DNA from: a virus
Taxonomy: Duplodnaviria > Heunggongvirae > Uroviricota > Caudoviricetes
Reading direction: 5' to 3' (one strand)
IMG/VR virus record: IMGVR_UViG_2778261593_000002
Span: 1 to 10,619 of that record
Length of the DNA: 10,619 nucleotides
The notes below the pieces were generated by a model. It worked only from the letters and a program-made list of their open reading frames with translations, ran no database searches and was not told the origin of the DNA. Position numbers and translations under genes: made by a program. Of the stretch, positions 302 through 10,394 are shown in pieces (within the stretch, counting starts at the first letter, position 1; each line of letters begins with the position of its first letter).

Positions 302-330
302 AATATATGCTTTTCAATCTACTTTTGCAA
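302..330 (-). promoter_or_regulatory. Sigma70 promoter directly after the Q stop codon (PR'-like late promoter, candidate qut region)
   Basis: Minus strand reads TTGCAA (coords 330..325) - 17 nt - TATATT (307..302). The -35 overlaps the last Q codons; predicted start near 295, about 50-70 nt upstream of the terminator at 225-251. A -10-like TATTTT lies in the early transcribed region. Confidence 0.5.
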
Positions 331-1003
331 TACTTTGCTTTGAAAATGCCGCCTTTTGTTCCGAACGCGTCCTCATTACCAACAATAAAGCCTCACTATC
401 CAGCTGGTGGAAAATGTGTTTCATTGCAACCCAGTGACCAGTAAATGTTTTGGACCAGTTTTTAGTTGTCACTCCCGCCAGTAATGCCAGATCCTGGTAT
501 TCATAACCTTCCCCGCCAAAAAGTTCTGCTTTTACTGCCTGCGCCGCCAGCCAGATTAATTTTTTCAGGCGTTCCCGTGTTTTCTCTGCAATTTTCCTGT
601 TGCCAGAATGAGCCTTAAACTCTTCCCATGCCCAGCGGGTTATGGTGACCTGATACTCCCAGCAAATATTTCCGCTGTAACACCACAACAACCAGGTTTT
701 ATGAGGTTCTTCAAGAGACAGAACAGCCCGTCGCCATGAGGATGTCGAAAACTCAACCTGACTTACCAGAGGAATTGACGTCCCCTTCGCCAGCGATTGT
801 TTCCCCGGGATTGGTGGATTATCCCGCGTGATCATTTTTCCAGTCACTTCATCGCAGTACCGGATTTTTTTACGCCTGTAACGCCCTGTATCGAACATGG
901 CATTCTCCTGCCAGGCTTCAAGCTGACCTTTTGTTGCCCCACTCAAATCGGCGGTGGCGATAATGAGCTGCTCACGAACAAACTGTAAATACTGGTTATT
1001 CAT
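314..1003 (-). CDS. Phage antitermination protein Q (non-lambda, phage 82/21-type Q family), 229 aa
   Basis: ORF 314..1039 trimmed to ATG at 1003..1001, which overlaps the rusA stop (ATGA coupling). It sits directly downstream of rusA and upstream of a strong promoter plus terminator, the canonical Q position. Family assignment is from memory of Q-like proteins. Confidence 0.65.
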   Translation of the reverse strand: MNNQYLQFVREQLIIATADLSGATKGQLEAWQENAMFDTGRYRRKKIRYCDEVTGKMITRDNPPIPGKQSLAKGTSIPLVSQVEFSTSSWRRAVLSLEEPHKTWLLWCYSGNICWEYQVTITRWAWEEFKAHSGNRKIAEKTRERLKKLIWLAAQAVKAELFGGEGYEYQDLALLAGVTTKNWSKTFTGHWVAMKHIFHQLDSEALLLVMRTRSEQKAAFSKQSIAKVD

Positions 1004-1365
1004 GCGCACTCCAGTTCTGTGATTTTTATCCCCAACCAACCACCAGGAACAGGCAGTCCGCGCACAATATTTATTTCATCAAACTGCTCGTCGTCTATGA
1101 GAAGTCCGGCATGCGTCAGCGCATCCAGTGGTGCTTTCAGAATATTGTCCAGGTCACGACGGCGCTTATCCGGTGGCTCCGCAGTAATTTTTATTGCCAG
1201 CCTTCCGGACAGGTTTAATTTCAGTCGCTGCTGGCGAACAATAAGCGCCACATCCCGGCGATAACGCTCACCGGCTTTTGATACAAAATATGTGCTGCCA
1301 CGACGTCGCCAGTAGGTGTTTACCGTCGGCGGGTAAGGCAAAACAAATTCTATGCGTTCAGTCAT
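1000..1365 (-). CDS. rusA: Crossover junction endodeoxyribonuclease RusA (Holliday junction resolvase), 121 aa
   Basis: Translation contains LPYPPTVNTYW, PDKRRRDLDN and DALTHAGLLIDDEQ blocks matching motifs I recall from E. coli RusA (LPWPPS, PDRRRRDLDN, DALTKAG..DD). Size and position before Q match lambdoid nin-region rusA. Confidence 0.88.
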   Translation of the reverse strand: MTERIEFVLPYPPTVNTYWRRRGSTYFVSKAGERYRRDVALIVRQQRLKLNLSGRLAIKITAEPPDKRRRDLDNILKAPLDALTHAGLLIDDEQFDEINIVRGLPVPGGWLGIKITELECA

Positions 1366-1366
1366 T

Positions 1367-2699
1367 TCATGCTTTCCACTTCAGAACACCCGAATTTTTC
1401 GCGTGCATTAAAAAACGAATCAGCAACAACAGCTGGCTGCCGTGTTTTTCTTCAAAATCTTTTACCCCAGCATGCAGTTCGTTATGGCATTTGCGGCACA
1501 GCGGAATAACAAACAAATCGTCAGCCTTTGTTCCCATCCCTCCCAGCCCATGACCAATGATGTGGTGCGGATCATCTGCCTGATTGCCACACGTCACGCA
1601 TTTCTGCGTTTTTACCCAGCGCGTGTATACGGGCATCTCTTCCCGTTGTGGTTTCTGGCGCTGGAGATACTGAGCCGGAGACTCCGGATCAACGGCAATG
1701 CTGACCACCGTCTTTTCCTGTGGCAGGCTCTGTTGCTGGTGGACGTGAGGCGGTAGCACAATATTTTTTGTGCGCTGCTTCAGTATGCTGGTGGCTGTCT
1801 GCTCTCCAGGTACGATGTCGCTGTCGCGGTACACTGAGAGGATTTTATCCGCACGCAATCCCAGCGAACGACGTAATACTGCCTCCGGTAATGCGTCCGC
1901 TACCTGATTGCAGACCGCCCACCAGGATAATTCAGCCAGCGATAATTCCCGCTCCTGTGTGCCATTCATTGCGTGACGGATGACGTCAGTCATCCATGCT
2001 GACAGGTTTTGATGAGCAAGTTGCCCGAGTGATTCGGAAGTCTGGTCACGCAGCTGGTTGTCGCAGTGCCAGCACAACACCATCGCGCCGGTACCGTAAC
2101 GATGTATGACGGTTTCGCTGTGGTGATAGTCGCCATGAGGCCACTGGCAGGATTTGACATGACGCAACAGCCAGTCAGAAAGTGCACCAGCGCCGCCAGC
2201 AGCACGAATCACCCGTTCGTTACTGAAAAACGGCAGCAATGTTTTGTCTTCCGCCAGCGGCTGGCGAATGGCAGGAACGACTCCGGACGGCAGACCGCGC
2301 ATGCTTTTCGGTTCCGGCTCCACCAGCACTCGAGGGTTATGAAATACCTGCATGGATTCACGACCAGGCTTAAGGACCACCAGCCCGAGTTCCGGTACCG
2401 GAACAGGTCGAAGCAATACCCGCACGTTACCTCCAGATCCGTTGCTGGAATGTGCGGGACGGACGCGGTGGGCGTTCAGAGTAAGGCAGTCTGACTGAGA
2501 TGATCCAGTGTCGGAAGTCGAGGCTGAGGTCTTTCTGAAACTCGTAACCACGTCTGCGGTAGTTCTGAATCAGCCATTCGGCCTGTTCTTCAGTGCATGG
2601 ATCATGCTGGAACCAGTCAGATTTGAATGCATGAGAACGCCGCCCGTGCCTGCTGGCAAGGTCGGTATCAGAATTGTGATGTTTGGTATTGTGCGCCAT
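1367..2699 (-). pseudogene. DUF968-family (YdfU-like) protein with HNH-like Cys/His zinc motif, split across two reading frames (frameshift or sequencing error)
   Basis: C-terminal part in ORF 1367..2551 contains CVTCGN..HHIIGHGLGG..CRKCHNELH. N-terminal part is in a different frame (ORF 2427..2825, probable ATG at 2699..2697). The two frames overlap over 2427..2569 and both look coding-like. Same position as ydfU between hok and Q in Qin-type prophages. Confidence 0.5.
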
Positions 2700-2760
2700 C
2701 GGTTTTCTCTGCTGGCGCAGCAGGTGCCAGTTGTTCAGGCTGGCCTGTGGATTGTAAACC

Positions 2761-2786
2761 AGAATACGTAAAACAAAAAACCCGCC
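2761..2786 (-). terminator. Intrinsic terminator of the hok/mok mRNA
   Basis: Minus strand reads AACCCGC-UUCG-GCGGGUU followed by UUUUUGUUUU: 6-bp GC stem, UUCG tetraloop, U-run (plus-strand A-run 2761-2770). Confidence 0.6.
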
Positions 2787-2791
2787 GAAGC

Positions 2792-2806
2792 GGGTTAAGC
2801 GCGGGT
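2792..2806 (-). promoter_or_regulatory. 3' fold-back element of the hok mRNA (fbi-like), complementary to the predicted mRNA 5' end
   Basis: Plus 2792-2806 GCGGGTGCGTTGAGG is the reverse complement of plus 3180-3193 CCTCAAGCACCCGC with a single 1-nt bulge, so the 5' and 3' ends of the minus-strand transcript can form a 14-bp duplex, as in hok-family mRNAs. Confidence 0.5.
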
Positions 2807-2865
2807 GCGTTGAGGATGCCGACACATCAGAGGTGGCGGGAGATTACTCTCCCGCCTGGTCACTC

Positions 2866-3021
2866 TTACTTCTCAGATTCGTAGTCTACGAAGACAGCAA
2901 CCTCCGTCTGGCCGGTTCGGATTCGTACCTCGCAGAGGTCTTTCCTCGTTACCAGTGCCGTCACTATGACGGTTAAACAGATGACGATCAGGGCGATTAA
3001 CATCGCCTTTTGCTGCTTCAT
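2866..3021 (-). CDS. hok: Hok/Gef-family type I toxin (small membrane peptide), 51 aa
   Basis: MKQQKAMLIALIVICLTVIVTALVTRKDLCEVRIRTGQTEVAVFVDYESEK is near-identical to Hok/Gef/RelF family sequences recalled from memory. ATG at 3021..3019 with AAGGAG Shine-Dalgarno 9 nt upstream. Confidence 0.9.
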   Translation of the reverse strand: MKQQKAMLIALIVICLTVIVTALVTRKDLCEVRIRTGQTEVAVFVDYESEK

Positions 3022-3078
3022 AGCCTGCTTCTCCTTGCCTTTCGGCACGTAAGAGGCTAACCTACATTTGTGAGACAT
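2866..3078 (-). CDS. mok: Mok-like in-frame N-terminally extended reading frame sharing the hok stop codon (70 aa)
   Basis: ATG at 3078..3076 with GAGG about 9 nt upstream; in frame with hok and adds 19 residues (MSHKCRLASYVPKGKEKQA). This mirrors the mokC/hokC arrangement (longer frame sharing the 3' end). Confidence 0.55.
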   Translation of the reverse strand: MSHKCRLASYVPKGKEKQAMKQQKAMLIALIVICLTVIVTALVTRKDLCEVRIRTGQTEVAVFVDYESEK

Positions 3079-3120
3079 AGATTGGGCCTCAGATTAATGT
3101 TAAGCGTCTTGCAGGACGCG
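3035..3120 (+). ncRNA. Candidate Sok-like antisense RNA region (promoter plus RNA) opposite the mok translation initiation region
   Basis: Plus strand TTGCCT (3035-3040) - 17 nt - TAACCT (3058-3063) would start transcription near 3070, antisense to the mok Shine-Dalgarno/ATG (3076-3095). A hairpin GCGTC-TTGCAG-GACGC lies at 3104-3119 but no clean U-run follows. Weak evidence. Confidence 0.25.
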
Positions 3121-3179
3121 TAATGTTAACTGGGGCTTTTCTCTATCTGCCTTTTGGTGTTCATGCCTGAGGCAGATAG

Positions 3180-3225
3180 CCTCAAGCACCCGCAGCAATT
3201 CTACTTAACTCTCCTTTTCCCGCAA
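3180..3225 (-). promoter_or_regulatory. Putative hok/mok promoter and mRNA 5' end
   Basis: Minus strand TTGCGG (3225..3220) - 16 nt - TAGAAT (3203..3198); predicted start near 3191, which coincides with the 5' partner (3193..3180) of the fold-back pairing. A 9-bp hairpin CTATCTGCC / GGCAGATAG (3144-3179) lies in the leader. Confidence 0.4.
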
Positions 3226-3232
3226 ACCGTTT

Positions 3233-3316
3233 TTATCCCCATCGGCAAATCGAATACACCACCAGCGCCACCGCCATCGCAATTCCTACTGTAGTGAATG
3301 CCTCAGGCCAGGTCAT
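3233..3316 (-). CDS. Possible 27-aa hydrophobic small protein (below the ORF-track cutoff)
   Basis: ATG at 3316..3314 overlaps the stop of the upstream gene (ATGA); translation MTWPEAFTTVGIAMAVALVVYSICRWG ends at TAA 3235..3233. One predicted transmembrane-like segment. It overlaps the predicted hok promoter. Confidence 0.3.
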   Translation of the reverse strand: MTWPEAFTTVGIAMAVALVVYSICRWG

Positions 3317-3708
3317 CGATTCACCTCCTGCTCAATATTTTTAAGGTCATTTTCCGCATACAGTATTGCTGTCCTGGCTGCTCGTAACCGGGCTTTGGCG
3401 TTTTTCTCTTCACGTTCAAGTTTTGCCACAGCTTCACGAAGAGCATCCCGCTTTGCATAGAGTGATTTTATCTCAGACACTATGTTTTCACCGTTTCTCG
3501 CACGCTCGAGAACAAGCTCGAACGGATCTAAAGCCAATCCGCATCGGTTACAGGTAATCGTACGATTCACTTCTGAAATTGTTGTACGGATATGCTGACA
3601 GCATTTTTGCTCGCCGCTTTTTCTGTCGGTTATCACAACGTTGAGGAGTCCTTCCTCCTCTGATTTTGGCTGTACCAGGGTGATAACATTGTCGACTTCA
3701 TTTTTCAT
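3313..3708 (-). CDS. Hypothetical phage protein, 131 aa, N-terminal Cys cluster (CC..C..C) and C-terminal coiled-coil-like region
   Basis: ATG at 3708..3706 overlaps the upstream stop (ATGA) with AGGAGG 7 nt upstream; C-terminus is Lys/Glu/Arg/Ala-rich (AKLEREEKNAKARLRAARTAILYAENDLKNIEQEV). Confidence 0.6.
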   Translation of the reverse strand: MKNEVDNVITLVQPKSEEEGLLNVVITDRKSGEQKCCQHIRTTISEVNRTITCNRCGLALDPFELVLERARNGENIVSEIKSLYAKRDALREAVAKLEREEKNAKARLRAARTAILYAENDLKNIEQEVNR

Positions 3709-7405: not shown

Positions 7406-7831
7406 TTAGTGCATCACCAGGGCATTTCCCGCCGGACCACCACGATTCATCTGATTGAAACCAGCGATCGCCACTGCGACAAAATCATCAGCGTCTCTCA
7501 CCAGTCGCTCCCGCGTCTCCACCAGCTCCCGAAAATAAGCTGAACTGTGGCTGCGCATTCTGGCCACCAGCAAAGGTGGCATTGCCTTTTCGATCGCTGG
7601 TAACAACGCCTGAATTTTTTCAACTGCATCAGGGGTGTCTTTCTCTACCCAGCGGAAAATTTTCTGGGTATTGCGAGCCAGGGCTTCCGGATGGCTGTCG
7701 TCATACAGTTCCGGGAACGTCATTCCCAGCTCGAAATACGCTTTGGTAATTTTCGCAGCCGGTACTTTTTCGCCGTCCGGATGCGCCCAGGCATTCATCG
7801 CCATGCGGATGTGTTCATGCTTGATTTTCAT
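7406..7831 (-). CDS. YdaT-like protein (reported CII functional analog of Rac-type prophages), 141 aa
   Basis: N-terminus MKIKHEHI and C-terminus ending VMH match what I recall of E. coli Rac YdaT; start overlaps the cro-like stop (ATGA); GGGGG Shine-Dalgarno upstream. Confidence 0.6.
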   Translation of the reverse strand: MKIKHEHIRMAMNAWAHPDGEKVPAAKITKAYFELGMTFPELYDDSHPEALARNTQKIFRWVEKDTPDAVEKIQALLPAIEKAMPPLLVARMRSHSSAYFRELVETRERLVRDADDFVAVAIAGFNQMNRGGPAGNALVMH

Positions 7832-8058
7832 GAATCCCCCCCTTGGTTAGAAGGCGGATTATGATCAGAACCGGGAATGACAACCGTCGGTATGTGTAAC
7901 TCATATTTGAGCGCCCCGGCAGTGACTGCCTGAATTAGCAACGCCCATTTCCACGGAACCTCTTCCCCCCACATGCTGACTGTGGTTTTTGACGTTCCTA
8001 GAGCTGCGGCTGTTTTAACAACTCCGCCAAAATAGCCTAATACTTCTGATTTTTTCAT
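7828..8058 (-). CDS. Cro/YdaS/DicC-like small HTH regulator, 76 aa
   Basis: ORF 7828..8106 trimmed to ATG at 8058..8056 with GGAG 7 nt upstream; HTH-like segment VVKTAAALGTSKTTVSMW; divergent from the CI-like gene across a 91-bp operator region. Confidence 0.65.
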   Translation of the reverse strand: MKKSEVLGYFGGVVKTAAALGTSKTTVSMWGEEVPWKWALLIQAVTAGALKYELHIPTVVIPGSDHNPPSNQGGDS

Positions 8059-8151
8059 GAGTCGCTCCATAAAACTGAACGTCAAAAGTTTAATAATCAA
8101 AACCAAAAAAAGTCAAGAAACAAAACCATCTGTGTTTTAAAATCAAAACAT
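8059..8151. promoter_or_regulatory. Divergent immunity control region (OR-like): PR-like and PRM-like promoters with a palindromic operator
   Basis: Perfect inverted repeat TGTTTT-aaaatc-AAAACAT at 8133-8151, overlapping the CI start codon and a TAAAAT -10 (8138-8143). Minus strand has TTGACT at 8116..8111 followed by AT-rich -10 candidates for the cro-like gene. No Shine-Dalgarno precedes the CI ATG, suggesting a leaderless transcript. Confidence 0.55.
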
Positions 8152-8788
8152 GAGCAAGCAAACTATATCTGAACGCATAACCCAACGTATGCATGCGCTA
8201 AACCTGAAAGGCAAAGACCTTGTCAATGGCACTGGCGCATCAAAAGGCTCCGTAAGTCAATGGATGAACGGTGGAGGAGCGCCGTCCTCGCGTTACATAA
8301 GTTCACTGGCAAAAATATTGAAAGTAAACGAAAATTGGCTTCTTAATGGAGGAGAGTTAAATACAGGTGATTCGCTTGATCTATCTTTACCGCCGATAAA
8401 AACGGTTCCGCTACTATCACTTCAGCAGGCAGCAAGCTGGAGTGATTATATGAAAAATTCCTCAATAACCTCTTGTGTGCAGCTTGTCGGAGAAATCCCG
8501 GTCAATACCTTTGCAGTTGTTCTAGAGAGTGACAGTATGTCAACATCTGGTGGGGGAGTTTCCATCCCAAATGGTTCAACAGTTTTTGTTGATCCCGATC
8601 GAACCGTACAACCAGGAAATATTGTCCTTGCCTTACCCAAAGGGACCACAACACCTGTCATTCGTAAACTGGAGATAGAAGGGCCGGATATTCTTTTAGT
8701 CCCCACGAATCCTCGCTACCCTTCAATTATGCTGGATGATCTATCTTGCATATTGGGCGTATGCTTTAAAATTCAACAAGATATTTAA
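8150..8788 (+). CDS. CI-type prophage repressor with N-terminal HTH and C-terminal S24 (LexA-like) autopeptidase domain, 212 aa
   Basis: N-terminal HTH (ISERITQRMHALNLKGKDLVNGTGASKGSVSQW); C-terminal ESDSM...VFVDPDR...VIRKL...LVPTNPRYPSI parallels lambda CI motifs GDSM / VDPE / KKL / LNPQYPMI. Confidence 0.85.
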   Translation: MSKQTISERITQRMHALNLKGKDLVNGTGASKGSVSQWMNGGGAPSSRYISSLAKILKVNENWLLNGGELNTGDSLDLSLPPIKTVPLLSLQQAASWSDYMKNSSITSCVQLVGEIPVNTFAVVLESDSMSTSGGGVSIPNGSTVFVDPDRTVQPGNIVLALPKGTTTPVIRKLEIEGPDILLVPTNPRYPSIMLDDLSCILGVCFKIQQDI

Positions 8789-10337: not shown

Positions 10338-10394
10338 TTCTGGTGACATTTGGCGGTATCAGTTTTACTCCGTGACTGCTCTGCCGCCCTTTTT
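10338..10394 (+). ncRNA. dicF: DicF small regulatory RNA with its Rho-independent terminator
   Basis: TTCTGGTGACATTTGGCGGTATCAGTTTTACTCCGTGACTGCTCTGCCGCCCTTTTTT matches the E. coli DicF sequence as I recall it with one or two substitutions; GGCGG...CCGCC stem followed by a T-run; position between ydfC-like and dicB-like genes. Confidence 0.8.

What the first reader, a model, noticed from the sequence alone, without database searches (positions are those of the whole stretch)
2761..3225. Self-contained hok/mok type I toxin locus with detectable 5'-3' mRNA fold-back pairing
The Hok toxin is unmistakable, and the locus has its own regulatory architecture. There is an in-frame Mok-like extension, a UUCG-tetraloop terminator, and a 14-bp complementarity between the predicted mRNA 5' end (3193..3180) and 3' end (2806..2792), the hallmark of fold-back inhibition in hok mRNAs. 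It sits between the cargo operon and the DUF968 gene where Qin has relBE-hokD, suggesting module exchange. An antisense Sok-like RNA is only weakly predicted.
Basis: partly seen in the sequence, partly recalled or inferred. Interest (0 to 1): 0.6.

Follow-up and report, generated by a model that had tools for sequence, protein, structure and literature searches.

The report
Ordinary prophage hok/mok/sok toxin-antitoxin locus
This is a complete, textbook hok/mok/sok type I toxin-antitoxin cassette in an E. coli lambdoid prophage, a near-copy of the already studied hokW-sokW locus and the intact form of K-12's truncated hokD, so it is real but not new.

Summary

- **Toxin.** Window 3229..2775 (minus strand) encodes a Hok toxin (3021..2866) identical in protein sequence to HokW of Stx2 phage Sp5/VT2-Sakai. 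The DNA is 95% identical to that annotated and experimentally tested hokW-mokW-sokW locus.
- **RNA switch.** Every element of the hok RNA switch is present, and thermodynamic folding reproduces the published switch. In the full-length mRNA, tac pairs with fbi (pair probability about 1) and ucb pairs with the mok Shine-Dalgarno. After 3' trimming, tac pairs with ucb and the mok SD pairs with dcb.
- **Coordinate error.** It is 2815..2803 (12 bp plus a bulged C2809), not 2806..2792.
- **Sok.** Sok is not "weakly predicted". Its promoter hexamers and 71-nt RNA (3070..3140, plus strand) are those of sokW.
- **Relation to K-12 hokD.** K-12 Qin hokD is the 3' part of this same locus. relBE has displaced the leader (tac, ucb, mok start, sok).
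- **Prevalence.** An intact leader is found in 4280 of 5426 complete E. coli genomes.

Novelty: already known. Interest is low. The only mildly new angles are the clustering of allele differences in the Sok 5' tail and the co-orientation of the cassette with early phage transcription.

The parts
3221..3226 (-). hok promoter -35 (TTTGCG), 17-nt spacer
   Evidence: Read from the sequence. Homology with PPompW and hokW loci begins just upstream, at about 3229. Below the threshold of the consensus scan, so assigned by position and homology only.
3198..3203 (-). hok promoter -10 (TAGAAT), 6 nt before +1
   Evidence: Sequence. There are no differences from the hokW locus between 3229 and 3169. hokW mRNA was detected in lysogens (PMC8621323).
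2775..3191 (-). Full-length hok mRNA (about 417 nt), with +1 inferred at 3191
   Evidence: The Rfam sok/hok-leader model starts at 3191. The terminator ends at about 2775. Fold -167 kcal/mol, z = -7.0.
3180..3191 (-). tac (translational activator element), GGGUGCUUGAGG
   Evidence: Pairs with fbi in the full-length fold (p 0.87-1.0), with ucb in the truncated fold, and with 3173..3163 in the nascent 35-nt RNA.
3163..3173 (-). Partner of tac in the metastable 5' hairpin of the nascent transcript
   Evidence: Fold of 3191..3157: 11-bp hairpin, -19.6 kcal/mol, z = -5.1.
3132..3138 (-). ucb (upstream complementary box, the anti-SD of mok), AAGCCCC
   Evidence: Pairs with the mok SD in the full-length MFE and with tac in the truncated MFE. 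Same helix as in the Rfam consensus.
3070..3140 (+). Sok antisense RNA (71 nt): 13-nt single-stranded 5' tail, long hairpin, UUUU
   Evidence: Aligns to the annotated sokW of VT2-Sakai with 64 of 71 positions identical. Fold -29.2 kcal/mol, z = -5.65.
3035..3040 (+). sok promoter -35 (TTGCCT)
   Evidence: Sequence. 17-nt spacer to the -10. No differences from the hokW locus here.
3058..3063 (+). sok promoter -10 (TAACCT), 6 nt before the Sok 5' end at 3070
   Evidence: Sequence. No differences from the hokW locus here. Promoter mutations of sokW abolished antitoxin activity (PMC8621323).
3087..3090 (-). mok Shine-Dalgarno (GAGG)
   Evidence: Lies 8 nt upstream of the mok AUG. Paired with ucb in the full-length fold and with dcb in the truncated fold.
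2866..3078 (-). mok ORF (70 aa), in frame with and containing hok
   Evidence: ORF list. Homologous to the annotated mokW.
3053..3057 (-). dcb (downstream complementary box), GCCUC
   Evidence: Pairs with the mok SD region in the truncated MFE.
3031..3036 (-). hok Shine-Dalgarno (AAGGAG)
   Evidence: Sequence; 9 nt upstream of the hok AUG. Homology with K-12 hokD starts here.
2866..3021 (-). hok CDS (51 aa membrane toxin)
   Evidence: Pfam PF01848 E=1.1e-22. NCBIfam Hok-family hit E=1.5e-14, below the curated cutoff. Protein identical to HokW.
2874..2888 (-). Predicted TadA editing hairpin: 7-nt loop CUACGAA carrying the Tyr47 UAC codon (2883..2881)
   Evidence: Structure in the MFE. TACG motif and Tyr-to-Cys editing of hokC/D/E are reported in PMC5630033 and PMC12214031.
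2835..2856 (-). 9-bp GUAA-loop hairpin, the likely 3' protective stem of the processed mRNA
   Evidence: Present in the MFE and centroid folds. Role inferred from R1 data in PMC9841398.
2803..2815 (-). fbi (fold-back inhibitory element), CCUCAaCGCACCC with bulged C2809
2775..2796 (-). Intrinsic terminator AACCCGC-UUCG-GCGGGUU followed by U run
   Evidence: Shared with K-12 hokD and PPompW but absent from VT2-Sakai.

Best explanation
The region is a canonical, intact hok/mok/sok type I toxin-antitoxin cassette carried as a moron in the early-right (replication-to-Q) region of an E. coli lambdoid prophage. It is an allele of hokW-sokW (Sp5/933W) and the uninterrupted form of K-12 hokD.

Proposed mechanism. 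The anatomy is shown here; the dynamics are inferred from plasmid R1 and hokW work.
1. A weak constitutive promoter (-10 at 3203..3198) makes a roughly 417-nt mRNA.
2. While the RNA is nascent, tac is trapped in a 5' hairpin.
3. In the finished RNA, tac pairs with fbi near the 3' end and ucb masks the mok Shine-Dalgarno. The RNA is then neither translated nor bound by Sok.
4. Slow 3' trimming back to the 2856..2835 hairpin removes fbi. tac switches to ucb and the mok SD moves to dcb.
5. mok translation can now drive coupled hok translation, unless the unstable 71-nt Sok RNA (3070..3140, +) pairs across the mok start and the duplex is cut by RNase III.
6. When Sok supply stops, Hok is made, inserts in the inner membrane and depolarises or lyses the cell.

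In a prophage the most likely pay-off is the one shown for hokW: loss of Sok on induction and earlier, more complete lysis. Prophage retention or phage exclusion remain possible.
For: - Protein and RNA family hits: Pfam HOK_GEF 1.1e-22. Rfam RF01794 covers the whole leader at 121.7 bits, E=5e-28.
- Homology to a tested locus: 95.4% DNA identity to the annotated hokW/mokW/sokW. Hok is identical to HokW.
- Sok: 64 of 71 positions identical to sokW, with no differences from sokW in either promoter hexamer. It has the canonical tail-plus-hairpin fold.
- Full-length fold: tac/fbi with p about 1 and ucb/mok-SD pairing. Truncated fold: tac/ucb and mok-SD/dcb. These are exactly the elements listed for R1 in PMC9841398.
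- Metastable 5' hairpin.
- tac/fbi is conserved in position, with compensatory changes, across 7 loci.
- Experiments on hokW: toxicity, Sok antitoxin activity, partial RNase III/Hfq dependence, and RecA-dependent loss of Sok with Hok production on induction (PMC8621323).
- Prevalence: an intact leader is present in 4280 of 5426 complete E. coli genomes.
Against: - Nothing here is measured. Transcript ends, 3' processing, Sok expression and toxicity of this particular copy are all inferred.
- In the truncated RNA the ensemble slightly prefers the 5' hairpin (p=0.74) over tac/ucb. The two differ by only 1.5 kcal/mol (-142.4 against -143.9), so folding alone does not prove the switch.
- Both promoters fall below the consensus scan threshold.
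- Chromosomal hok loci with intact elements were reported not to mediate post-segregational killing (Pedersen and Gerdes 1999, as cited in bioRxiv 10.1101/2025.08.07.668861).
- hokW sits in a different place in its phage and lacks this terminator, so its induction behaviour may not transfer to this copy.
Confidence: 0.9

Rival explanations
1. The locus is a silent relic. It looks complete but, like the K-12 chromosomal hokA/C/D/E loci, it is functionally inactive and merely hitch-hikes in the prophage.
For: Literature cited in PMC12214031 and bioRxiv 10.1101/2025.08.07.668861 says most K-12 chromosomal hok loci are inactivated, and that even intact chromosomal loci failed to give post-segregational killing or rifampicin-induced killing. 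Both promoters are weak matches to the consensus.
Against: All elements are intact here: no IS insertion, no frameshift, and the tac/fbi/ucb/dcb pairings are preserved. Hok is identical to HokW, which is toxic and is expressed on induction (PMC8621323). Between 3229 and 3169 the sequence shows no differences from the active hokW locus.
Confidence: 0.08
2. The 5'-3' complementarity is a chance match in GC-rich sequence and has no regulatory role.
For: In the window alone, 22 of 500 shuffles of the downstream 220 nt give a duplex at least as stable.
Against: The same pairing occurs at the same relative position in hokW, PPompW, a P1-like phage, a Klebsiella IncF plasmid, K-12 hokB and a Photobacterium plasmid, with two-sided compensatory changes. 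It is absent only where IS186 cuts off the 3' end of hokC. Its pair probability in the ensemble is about 1. K-12 hokD still retains the fbi sequence.
Confidence: 0.02
3. It is the same molecular device, but its biological role is prophage retention (killing of cured cells) or exclusion of superinfecting phages (abortive infection) rather than assisting lysis on induction.
For: R1 hok/sok stabilises plasmids and reduces T4 plating (as summarised in PMC8621323). hok genes are enriched about 4-fold in prophages (bioRxiv 10.1101/2025.08.07.668861). The cassette behaves as a swappable moron next to other accessory ORFs.
Against: The only direct test of this allele family (hokW) found no growth effect in uninduced lysogens and a positive effect on phage release (PMC8621323). 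That preprint found no enrichment of hok next to defence systems.
Confidence: 0.3

Closest known systems
hokW-mokW-sokW of Stx2 phage Sp5 / VT2-Sakai (933W L0137/L0144/L0138)
   Same: 95.4% DNA identity over promoter, leader, mok/hok and fbi. The Hok protein is identical. No differences in the hok or sok promoter hexamers; same tac, ucb, dcb and fbi. The same 27-aa-ORF region lies upstream.
   Different: 7 of the 18 differences upstream of the terminator cluster in 3085..3068, which is the Sok 5' tail and mok codons 1-4: MSHK here against MLNT. VT2-Sakai lacks the UUCG terminator, with homology ending right after fbi. hokW sits just inside attR, downstream of int once the genome is circular, not between the replication genes and Q.
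hokD (relF) of the K-12 cryptic prophage Qin
   Same: Near-identical from the hok SD (window about 3034) through hok, the 3' hairpin, fbi and the same terminator. Same neighbourhood type: DUF968 (ydfU), the Q antiterminator and DicF.
   Different: K-12 lacks the hok promoter, tac, ucb, the mok start and the whole sok gene; relB-relE occupy that position. The HokD C-terminus is ...FTAYEPEE against ...FVDYESEK here. rem lies between hokD and ydfU in K-12. The relE-hokD junction is found in 1165 of 5426 genomes.
hok/sok of plasmid R1 (parB), the mechanistic paradigm
   Same: Same set of RNA elements and the same alternative pairings: metastable hairpin, tac/fbi, ucb/mok-SD, tac/ucb, mok-SD/dcb, and Sok antisense over the mok start (PMC9841398).
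   Different: HokW, whose protein is identical to this Hok, is reported as 44% identical to R1 Hok (PMC8621323). Here mok is in frame with hok, whereas in an R1-like Klebsiella IncF plasmid locus the annotated Mok-like (DUF5431) ORF has its own stop codon, so there mok is out of frame with hok. The carrier is a prophage, not a plasmid, so post-segregational killing is not the obvious role.
hokC (gef)/mokC/sokC of the E. coli chromosome
   Same: Identical tac (GGGUGCUUGAGGC), an in-frame mok, and an annotated Sok in the equivalent position.
   Different: The K-12 copy has IS186 downstream and no detectable fbi partner (138 of 500 shuffles do as well). Its protein is diverged.

Membership tests
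Hok/Gef toxin family (Pfam PF01848) | About 50-aa peptide with an N-terminal transmembrane helix and the conserved ...TRK.LCE... core, scoring above the family threshold | tested here: met
   PF01848 79.8 bits against a cutoff of 22, E=1.1e-22. Identical to HokW. NCBIfam Hok subfamily E=1.5e-14, but below its strict cutoff.
hok/mok/sok type I TA locus | mok reading frame with its own SD, starting upstream of and overlapping hok (translational coupling) | tested here: met
   ORF 3078..2866 with GAGG 8 nt upstream. Homologous to the annotated mokW. Coupling itself was not tested.
hok/mok/sok type I TA locus | Small cis-encoded antisense RNA (Sok) with its own promoter, complementary to the mok translation-initiation region | tested here: met
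   3070..3140 (+) aligns with the annotated 71-nt sokW, 64 of 71 positions identical, with no differences in the promoter hexamers. Fold shows a 5' tail plus hairpin plus U4. Expression not measured.
hok/mok/sok type I TA locus | tac/fbi long-range 5'-3' pairing in the full-length mRNA | tested here: met
   3191..3180 pairs with 2815..2803, p 0.87-1.0. Conserved with compensatory changes in homologues.
hok/mok/sok type I TA locus | ucb masks the mok SD in the full-length form; tac/ucb and mok-SD/dcb pair in the 3'-processed form | tested here: met
   MFE pair lists for the full-length and truncated RNAs; Rfam consensus helix. Caveat: in the truncated ensemble the 5' hairpin competes (p=0.74).
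hok/mok/sok type I TA locus | Metastable 5' hairpin sequestering tac in the nascent transcript | tested here: met
   11-bp hairpin in nt 3-29, -19.6 kcal/mol, z = -5.1.
hok/mok/sok type I TA locus | Match to the curated RNA family for the hok leader/sok region (Rfam RF01794) | tested here: met
   121.7 bits against a gathering score of 59, full model 1-157.
hok/mok/sok type I TA locus | Slow 3' exonucleolytic processing of the mRNA, and RNase III cleavage of the Sok-mRNA duplex | not testable with these tools
   Needs Northern blots or RACE in wild-type and rnc/pnp/rnb backgrounds. Partial RNase III dependence is reported for hokW (PMC8621323).
hok/mok/sok type I TA locus | Hok expression is toxic and Sok neutralises it | not testable with these tools
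   Shown for the identical HokW protein and the near-identical sokW (PMC8621323), not for this copy.
K-12-type relBE-hokD (relBEF) arrangement | hokD immediately downstream of relE with no hok leader or sok | tested here: not met
   The window has the full leader instead of relE; homology to Qin starts only at the hok SD.

The most novel reading that the evidence does not exclude
The cassette may be wired to be triggered by phage early transcription.
- In this window hok is co-oriented with the PR operon (cro 8106..7828 through Q 1039..314).
- In Sp5 the hokW block lies just inside attR on the same strand as PL-N-xis-int. After excision and circularisation, PL read-through would enter it.
- In both cases antiterminated early transcription would run with hok and head-on into the roughly 70-bp sok unit, shutting off Sok. 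This would explain the RecA-dependent and induction-dependent disappearance of sokW RNA that Takada et al. left unexplained.

A second, independent possibility: the cluster of allele differences in the Sok 5' tail (3085..3068) insulates co-resident hok/sok copies from cross-neutralisation. Genomes carry a median of 2 and up to 10-11 matching places.
Probability: 0.25. Interest if true: 0.4.

Novelty: already known. Interest (0 to 1): 0.1.

Why it matters
It matters little beyond annotation. The window carries a complete example of one of the best understood RNA-switch toxin systems, and it shows what K-12's truncated hokD looked like before relBE displaced its leader.

It could serve as a natural allele for two modest questions. 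How does prophage induction switch off Sok? Do Sok 5'-tail variants keep multiple prophage hok/sok copies from cross-talking?

Tried and rejected
- **Consensus promoter scan.** It found no sigma-70 site in 2600..3400. Both promoters are sub-threshold, so they were assigned by homology and spacing only.
- **Accessibility test.** I expected 3' trimming to raise P(unpaired) of the mok SD. It did not (0.24 to 0.19), because the SD merely swaps partner from ucb to dcb as in the published model. Simple accessibility is therefore not a usable test.
- **Truncated-RNA ensemble.** It slightly favours the 5' hairpin over tac/ucb, and the MFE favours tac/ucb by 1.5 kcal/mol. This is within model error and not decisive.
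- **Source genome.** A whole-window megablast found no complete E. coli genome covering 80% or more. The best was 72% at 91%, so the prophage is a mosaic and the source strain was not identified.
- **K-12 hokE.** My fetch missed the locus and I did not pursue it.
- **L011.** This Shigella plasmid fragment has no hok ORF and was dropped.
- **'Module exchange' as hok/sok swapped for relBE-hokD.** Rejected. The alignment shows a shared hok 3' part with a replaced leader.
- **Pfam on the alternative L013 cassette, the 27-aa ORF and the 90-aa ORF.** No hits.

Full report
**What is in the sequence**

On the minus strand the window carries a 51-codon ORF at 3021..2866. It is nested in frame inside a 70-codon ORF at 3078..2866. 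The product hits Pfam HOK_GEF at E=1.1e-22. It is residue-for-residue identical to HokW of phage VT2-Sakai/Sp5.

Rfam's RF01794 ('sok') model matches 3191..3016 end to end at 121.7 bits, E=5e-28. This model lies on the hok-mRNA sense strand and ends in the hok AUG. It therefore identifies the hok leader rather than telling us the strand of Sok.

A UUCG-loop intrinsic terminator sits at 2796..2779, followed by a U run to 2775.

**The 5'-3' pairing**

I folded the inferred full-length transcript 3191..2775, which is 417 nt. The result is -167 kcal/mol, z = -7.0 against dinucleotide shuffles. Both the MFE and the centroid structure close the molecule by pairing nt 1-12 with nt 377-389. Partition-function pair probabilities for these 12 pairs are 0.87-1.00.

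The arms are 3191..3180 (GGGUGCUUGAGG) and 2815..2803 (CCUCAaCGCACCC, with C2809 bulged). Its 3' arm was not: 2806..2792 reads ACCCGCGCTTAACCC and overlaps the true partner by only 6 nt. The quoted 14 bp needs 3193-3192, which lie upstream of the homology-inferred start.

On its own the duplex is only modestly unusual, since 22 of 500 shuffles of the 220 nt after hok do as well. However, the same pairing recurs with its duplex starting 43-59 nt after the hok stop in these loci:
- hokW
- a PPompW prophage
- a P1-like phage
- a Klebsiella IncF (R1-like) plasmid
- K-12 hokB
- a Photobacterium plasmid

The changes are two-sided and compensatory. In hokB, U-A becomes C-G and G-C becomes A-U. The R1-like locus pairs GGCGCUUGAGGC with GCCUGAAGCGCC. 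The pairing is lost only in K-12 hokC, where IS186 sits downstream. The pairing is therefore real and family-conserved.

**The rest of the RNA switch**

The published R1 model is summarised in PMC9841398 and has four parts:
- a metastable 5' hairpin in the nascent RNA;
- tac/fbi plus ucb/mok-SD pairing in the full-length RNA;
- tac/ucb plus mok-SD/dcb pairing after 3' processing;
- a 3' stem that protects the processed RNA.

All four are reproduced here by plain thermodynamic folding.
- The first 35 nt form an 11-bp hairpin (-19.6 kcal/mol, z = -5.1).
- In the full-length MFE, ucb (3136..3132) pairs with the mok SD (3090..3086).
- After removing fbi and the terminator, the MFE pairs tac (3191..3184) with ucb (3138..3132), and the mok SD with dcb (3057..3053).
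- A 9-bp GUAA-loop hairpin at 2856..2835 is present in every fold.

One caveat applies. In the truncated ensemble the 5' hairpin competes with tac/ucb (p=0.74), and the two states differ by 1.5 kcal/mol. Folding is consistent with the switch but does not prove it.

**Sok**

VT2-Sakai (AP000422.1) annotates mokW, hokW and a 71-nt sokW. The window is 95.4% identical to that locus.

By alignment, Sok here is 3070..3140 on the plus strand. Its -35 is TTGCCT at 3035..3040 and its -10 is TAACCT at 3058..3063. There are no differences from sokW in either hexamer. The RNA is 64/71 identical to sokW. It folds into a 13-nt single-stranded 5' tail, a long hairpin and UUUU (-29.2 kcal/mol, z = -5.65).

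Takada et al. (PMC8621323) reported the following for hokW-sokW:
- HokW arrests growth.
- sokW, expressed from its own promoter, neutralises it.
- RNase III and Hfq contribute partially.
- Prophage induction makes sokW RNA disappear and HokW accumulate in the inner membrane, in a RecA-dependent way.
- Deleting the locus halves phage release.

**Promoter and boundaries**

TAGAAT at 3203..3198 lies 6 nt before 3191. TTTGCG at 3226..3221 lies 17 nt further upstream. Homology to the more distant PPompW copy begins at about 3229 and ends at the terminator. Both promoters fall below the generic scan threshold.

**Relation to Qin relBE-hokD**

The K-12 hokD region aligns at near identity from the hok SD (window about 3034) through hok, the 3' hairpin, fbi and the same terminator. 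Upstream of that, the hok promoter, tac, ucb, the mok start and the sok promoter are replaced by relE. This matches the literature statement that hokD lost canonical components through genomic rearrangement (PMC12214031, citing Pedersen and Gerdes 1999). The window holds the intact form of that locus, not an alternative module.

Among 5426 complete E. coli genomes:
- 1165 carry the relE-hokD junction.
- 4280 carry a leader covering 80% or more of the query.
- 2794 carry 80% or more of the 601-nt locus query.

Real cassette swapping at this site does exist. The closest prophage backbone (L013) has the same flanks. The left flank runs into the first 15 codons of a small ORF, and the right flank starts at a near-identical terminator. 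Between them, L013 has a different two-ORF cassette where hok/sok sits here. The best hok match (L001, 99.5%) sits in a different nin-type context.

**Context**

The window is a lambdoid prophage early region. On the minus strand it carries:
- a cro-like gene (8106..7828);
- a YdaT-family gene;
- an HTH replication-initiator-like gene;
- accessory ORFs, including a DUF551 gene;
- the hok cassette;
- a 90-aa ORF, DUF968, RusA and antiterminator Q.

On the plus strand it carries a cI-like gene (8150..8788) and DicF at 10338..10389. hok is therefore co-oriented with PR transcription, and sok opposes it.

In Sp5 the hokW block lies just inside attR, on the same strand as PL-N-xis-int. After circularisation, PL read-through would also run with hokW and against sokW. 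This suggests, but does not show, that early antiterminated transcription shuts off Sok by head-on interference. That would explain the induction-dependent loss of sokW RNA which PMC8621323 left open.

**Verdict**

The thing is an ordinary member of a very well known system and is extremely common in E. coli (bioRxiv 10.1101/2025.08.07.668861 also reports hok enrichment in prophages). The closest relative has been characterised experimentally. Novelty is 'already known' and interest is about 0.1.

Noticed in passing
window 10338-10389 (+): A full-length DicF sRNA (Rfam RF00039, 77 bits, E=4.8e-16). It fits a Qin/Rac-type dicB-region prophage.
   Followed up: no
window 3316-3233 (-): A 27-codon hydrophobic ORF (MTWPEAFTTVGIAMAVALVVYSICRWG) with a GGAGG SD. 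Its ATG overlaps the stop of the 131-aa ORF (ATGA). It travels with the hok cassette in L001. Its first 15 codons are shared with the hok-less prophage L013, where the C-terminus differs. It is frameshifted in VT2-Sakai. No Pfam hit.
   Followed up: partly
L013 3034-3695 (-), equivalent to window about 2800-3270: The most similar prophage backbone carries a different two-ORF cassette (153 aa and 67 aa, no Pfam hits) between the same flanks, ending in a near-identical CCCGC-loop-GCGGG terminator. This points to a moron exchange hotspot.
   Followed up: partly
window 2888-2874 (-): The hok Tyr47 codon UAC followed by G (2883..2880) lies in a predicted 7-nt loop CUACGAA closed by UAGA/UCUG. This is the TadA A-to-I editing motif that recodes Tyr to Cys in hokC/D/E (PMC5630033; hokD edited at about 6%, PMC12214031).
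   Followed up: partly
window 3085-3068: 7 of the 18 differences from hokW upstream of the terminator fall in this 18-nt patch. It encodes the Sok 5' single-stranded tail (5 of its first 10 nt differ) and mok codons 1-4. This may be allele-specific Sok-target recognition.
   Followed up: partly
L007 about 2930-2990 (VT2-Sakai), against window 2796-2775: The experimentally studied hokW locus lacks the UUCG terminator. Homology stops right after fbi, whereas K-12 hokD and PPompW keep the terminator.
   Followed up: no
window 3191-3016 (-): Rfam RF01794, named 'sok antitoxin', matches the hok-mRNA sense strand from +1 to the hok AUG. A hit to it marks the hok leader, not the strand of Sok.
   Followed up: yes
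window 2699-2427 (-) and 2551-1367 (-): A 90-aa ORF (MAHNTKHH...) precedes DUF968, as in L013 where both are annotated. The mechanical 394-aa DUF968 ORF overlaps it and probably starts about 45 codons later; L013 annotates 349 aa. K-12 has rem at this position instead.
   Followed up: partly
whole window: No complete E. coli genome covers 80% or more of the window (best 72% at 91% identity). The prophage is a mosaic not represented as such in the collection.
   Followed up: no
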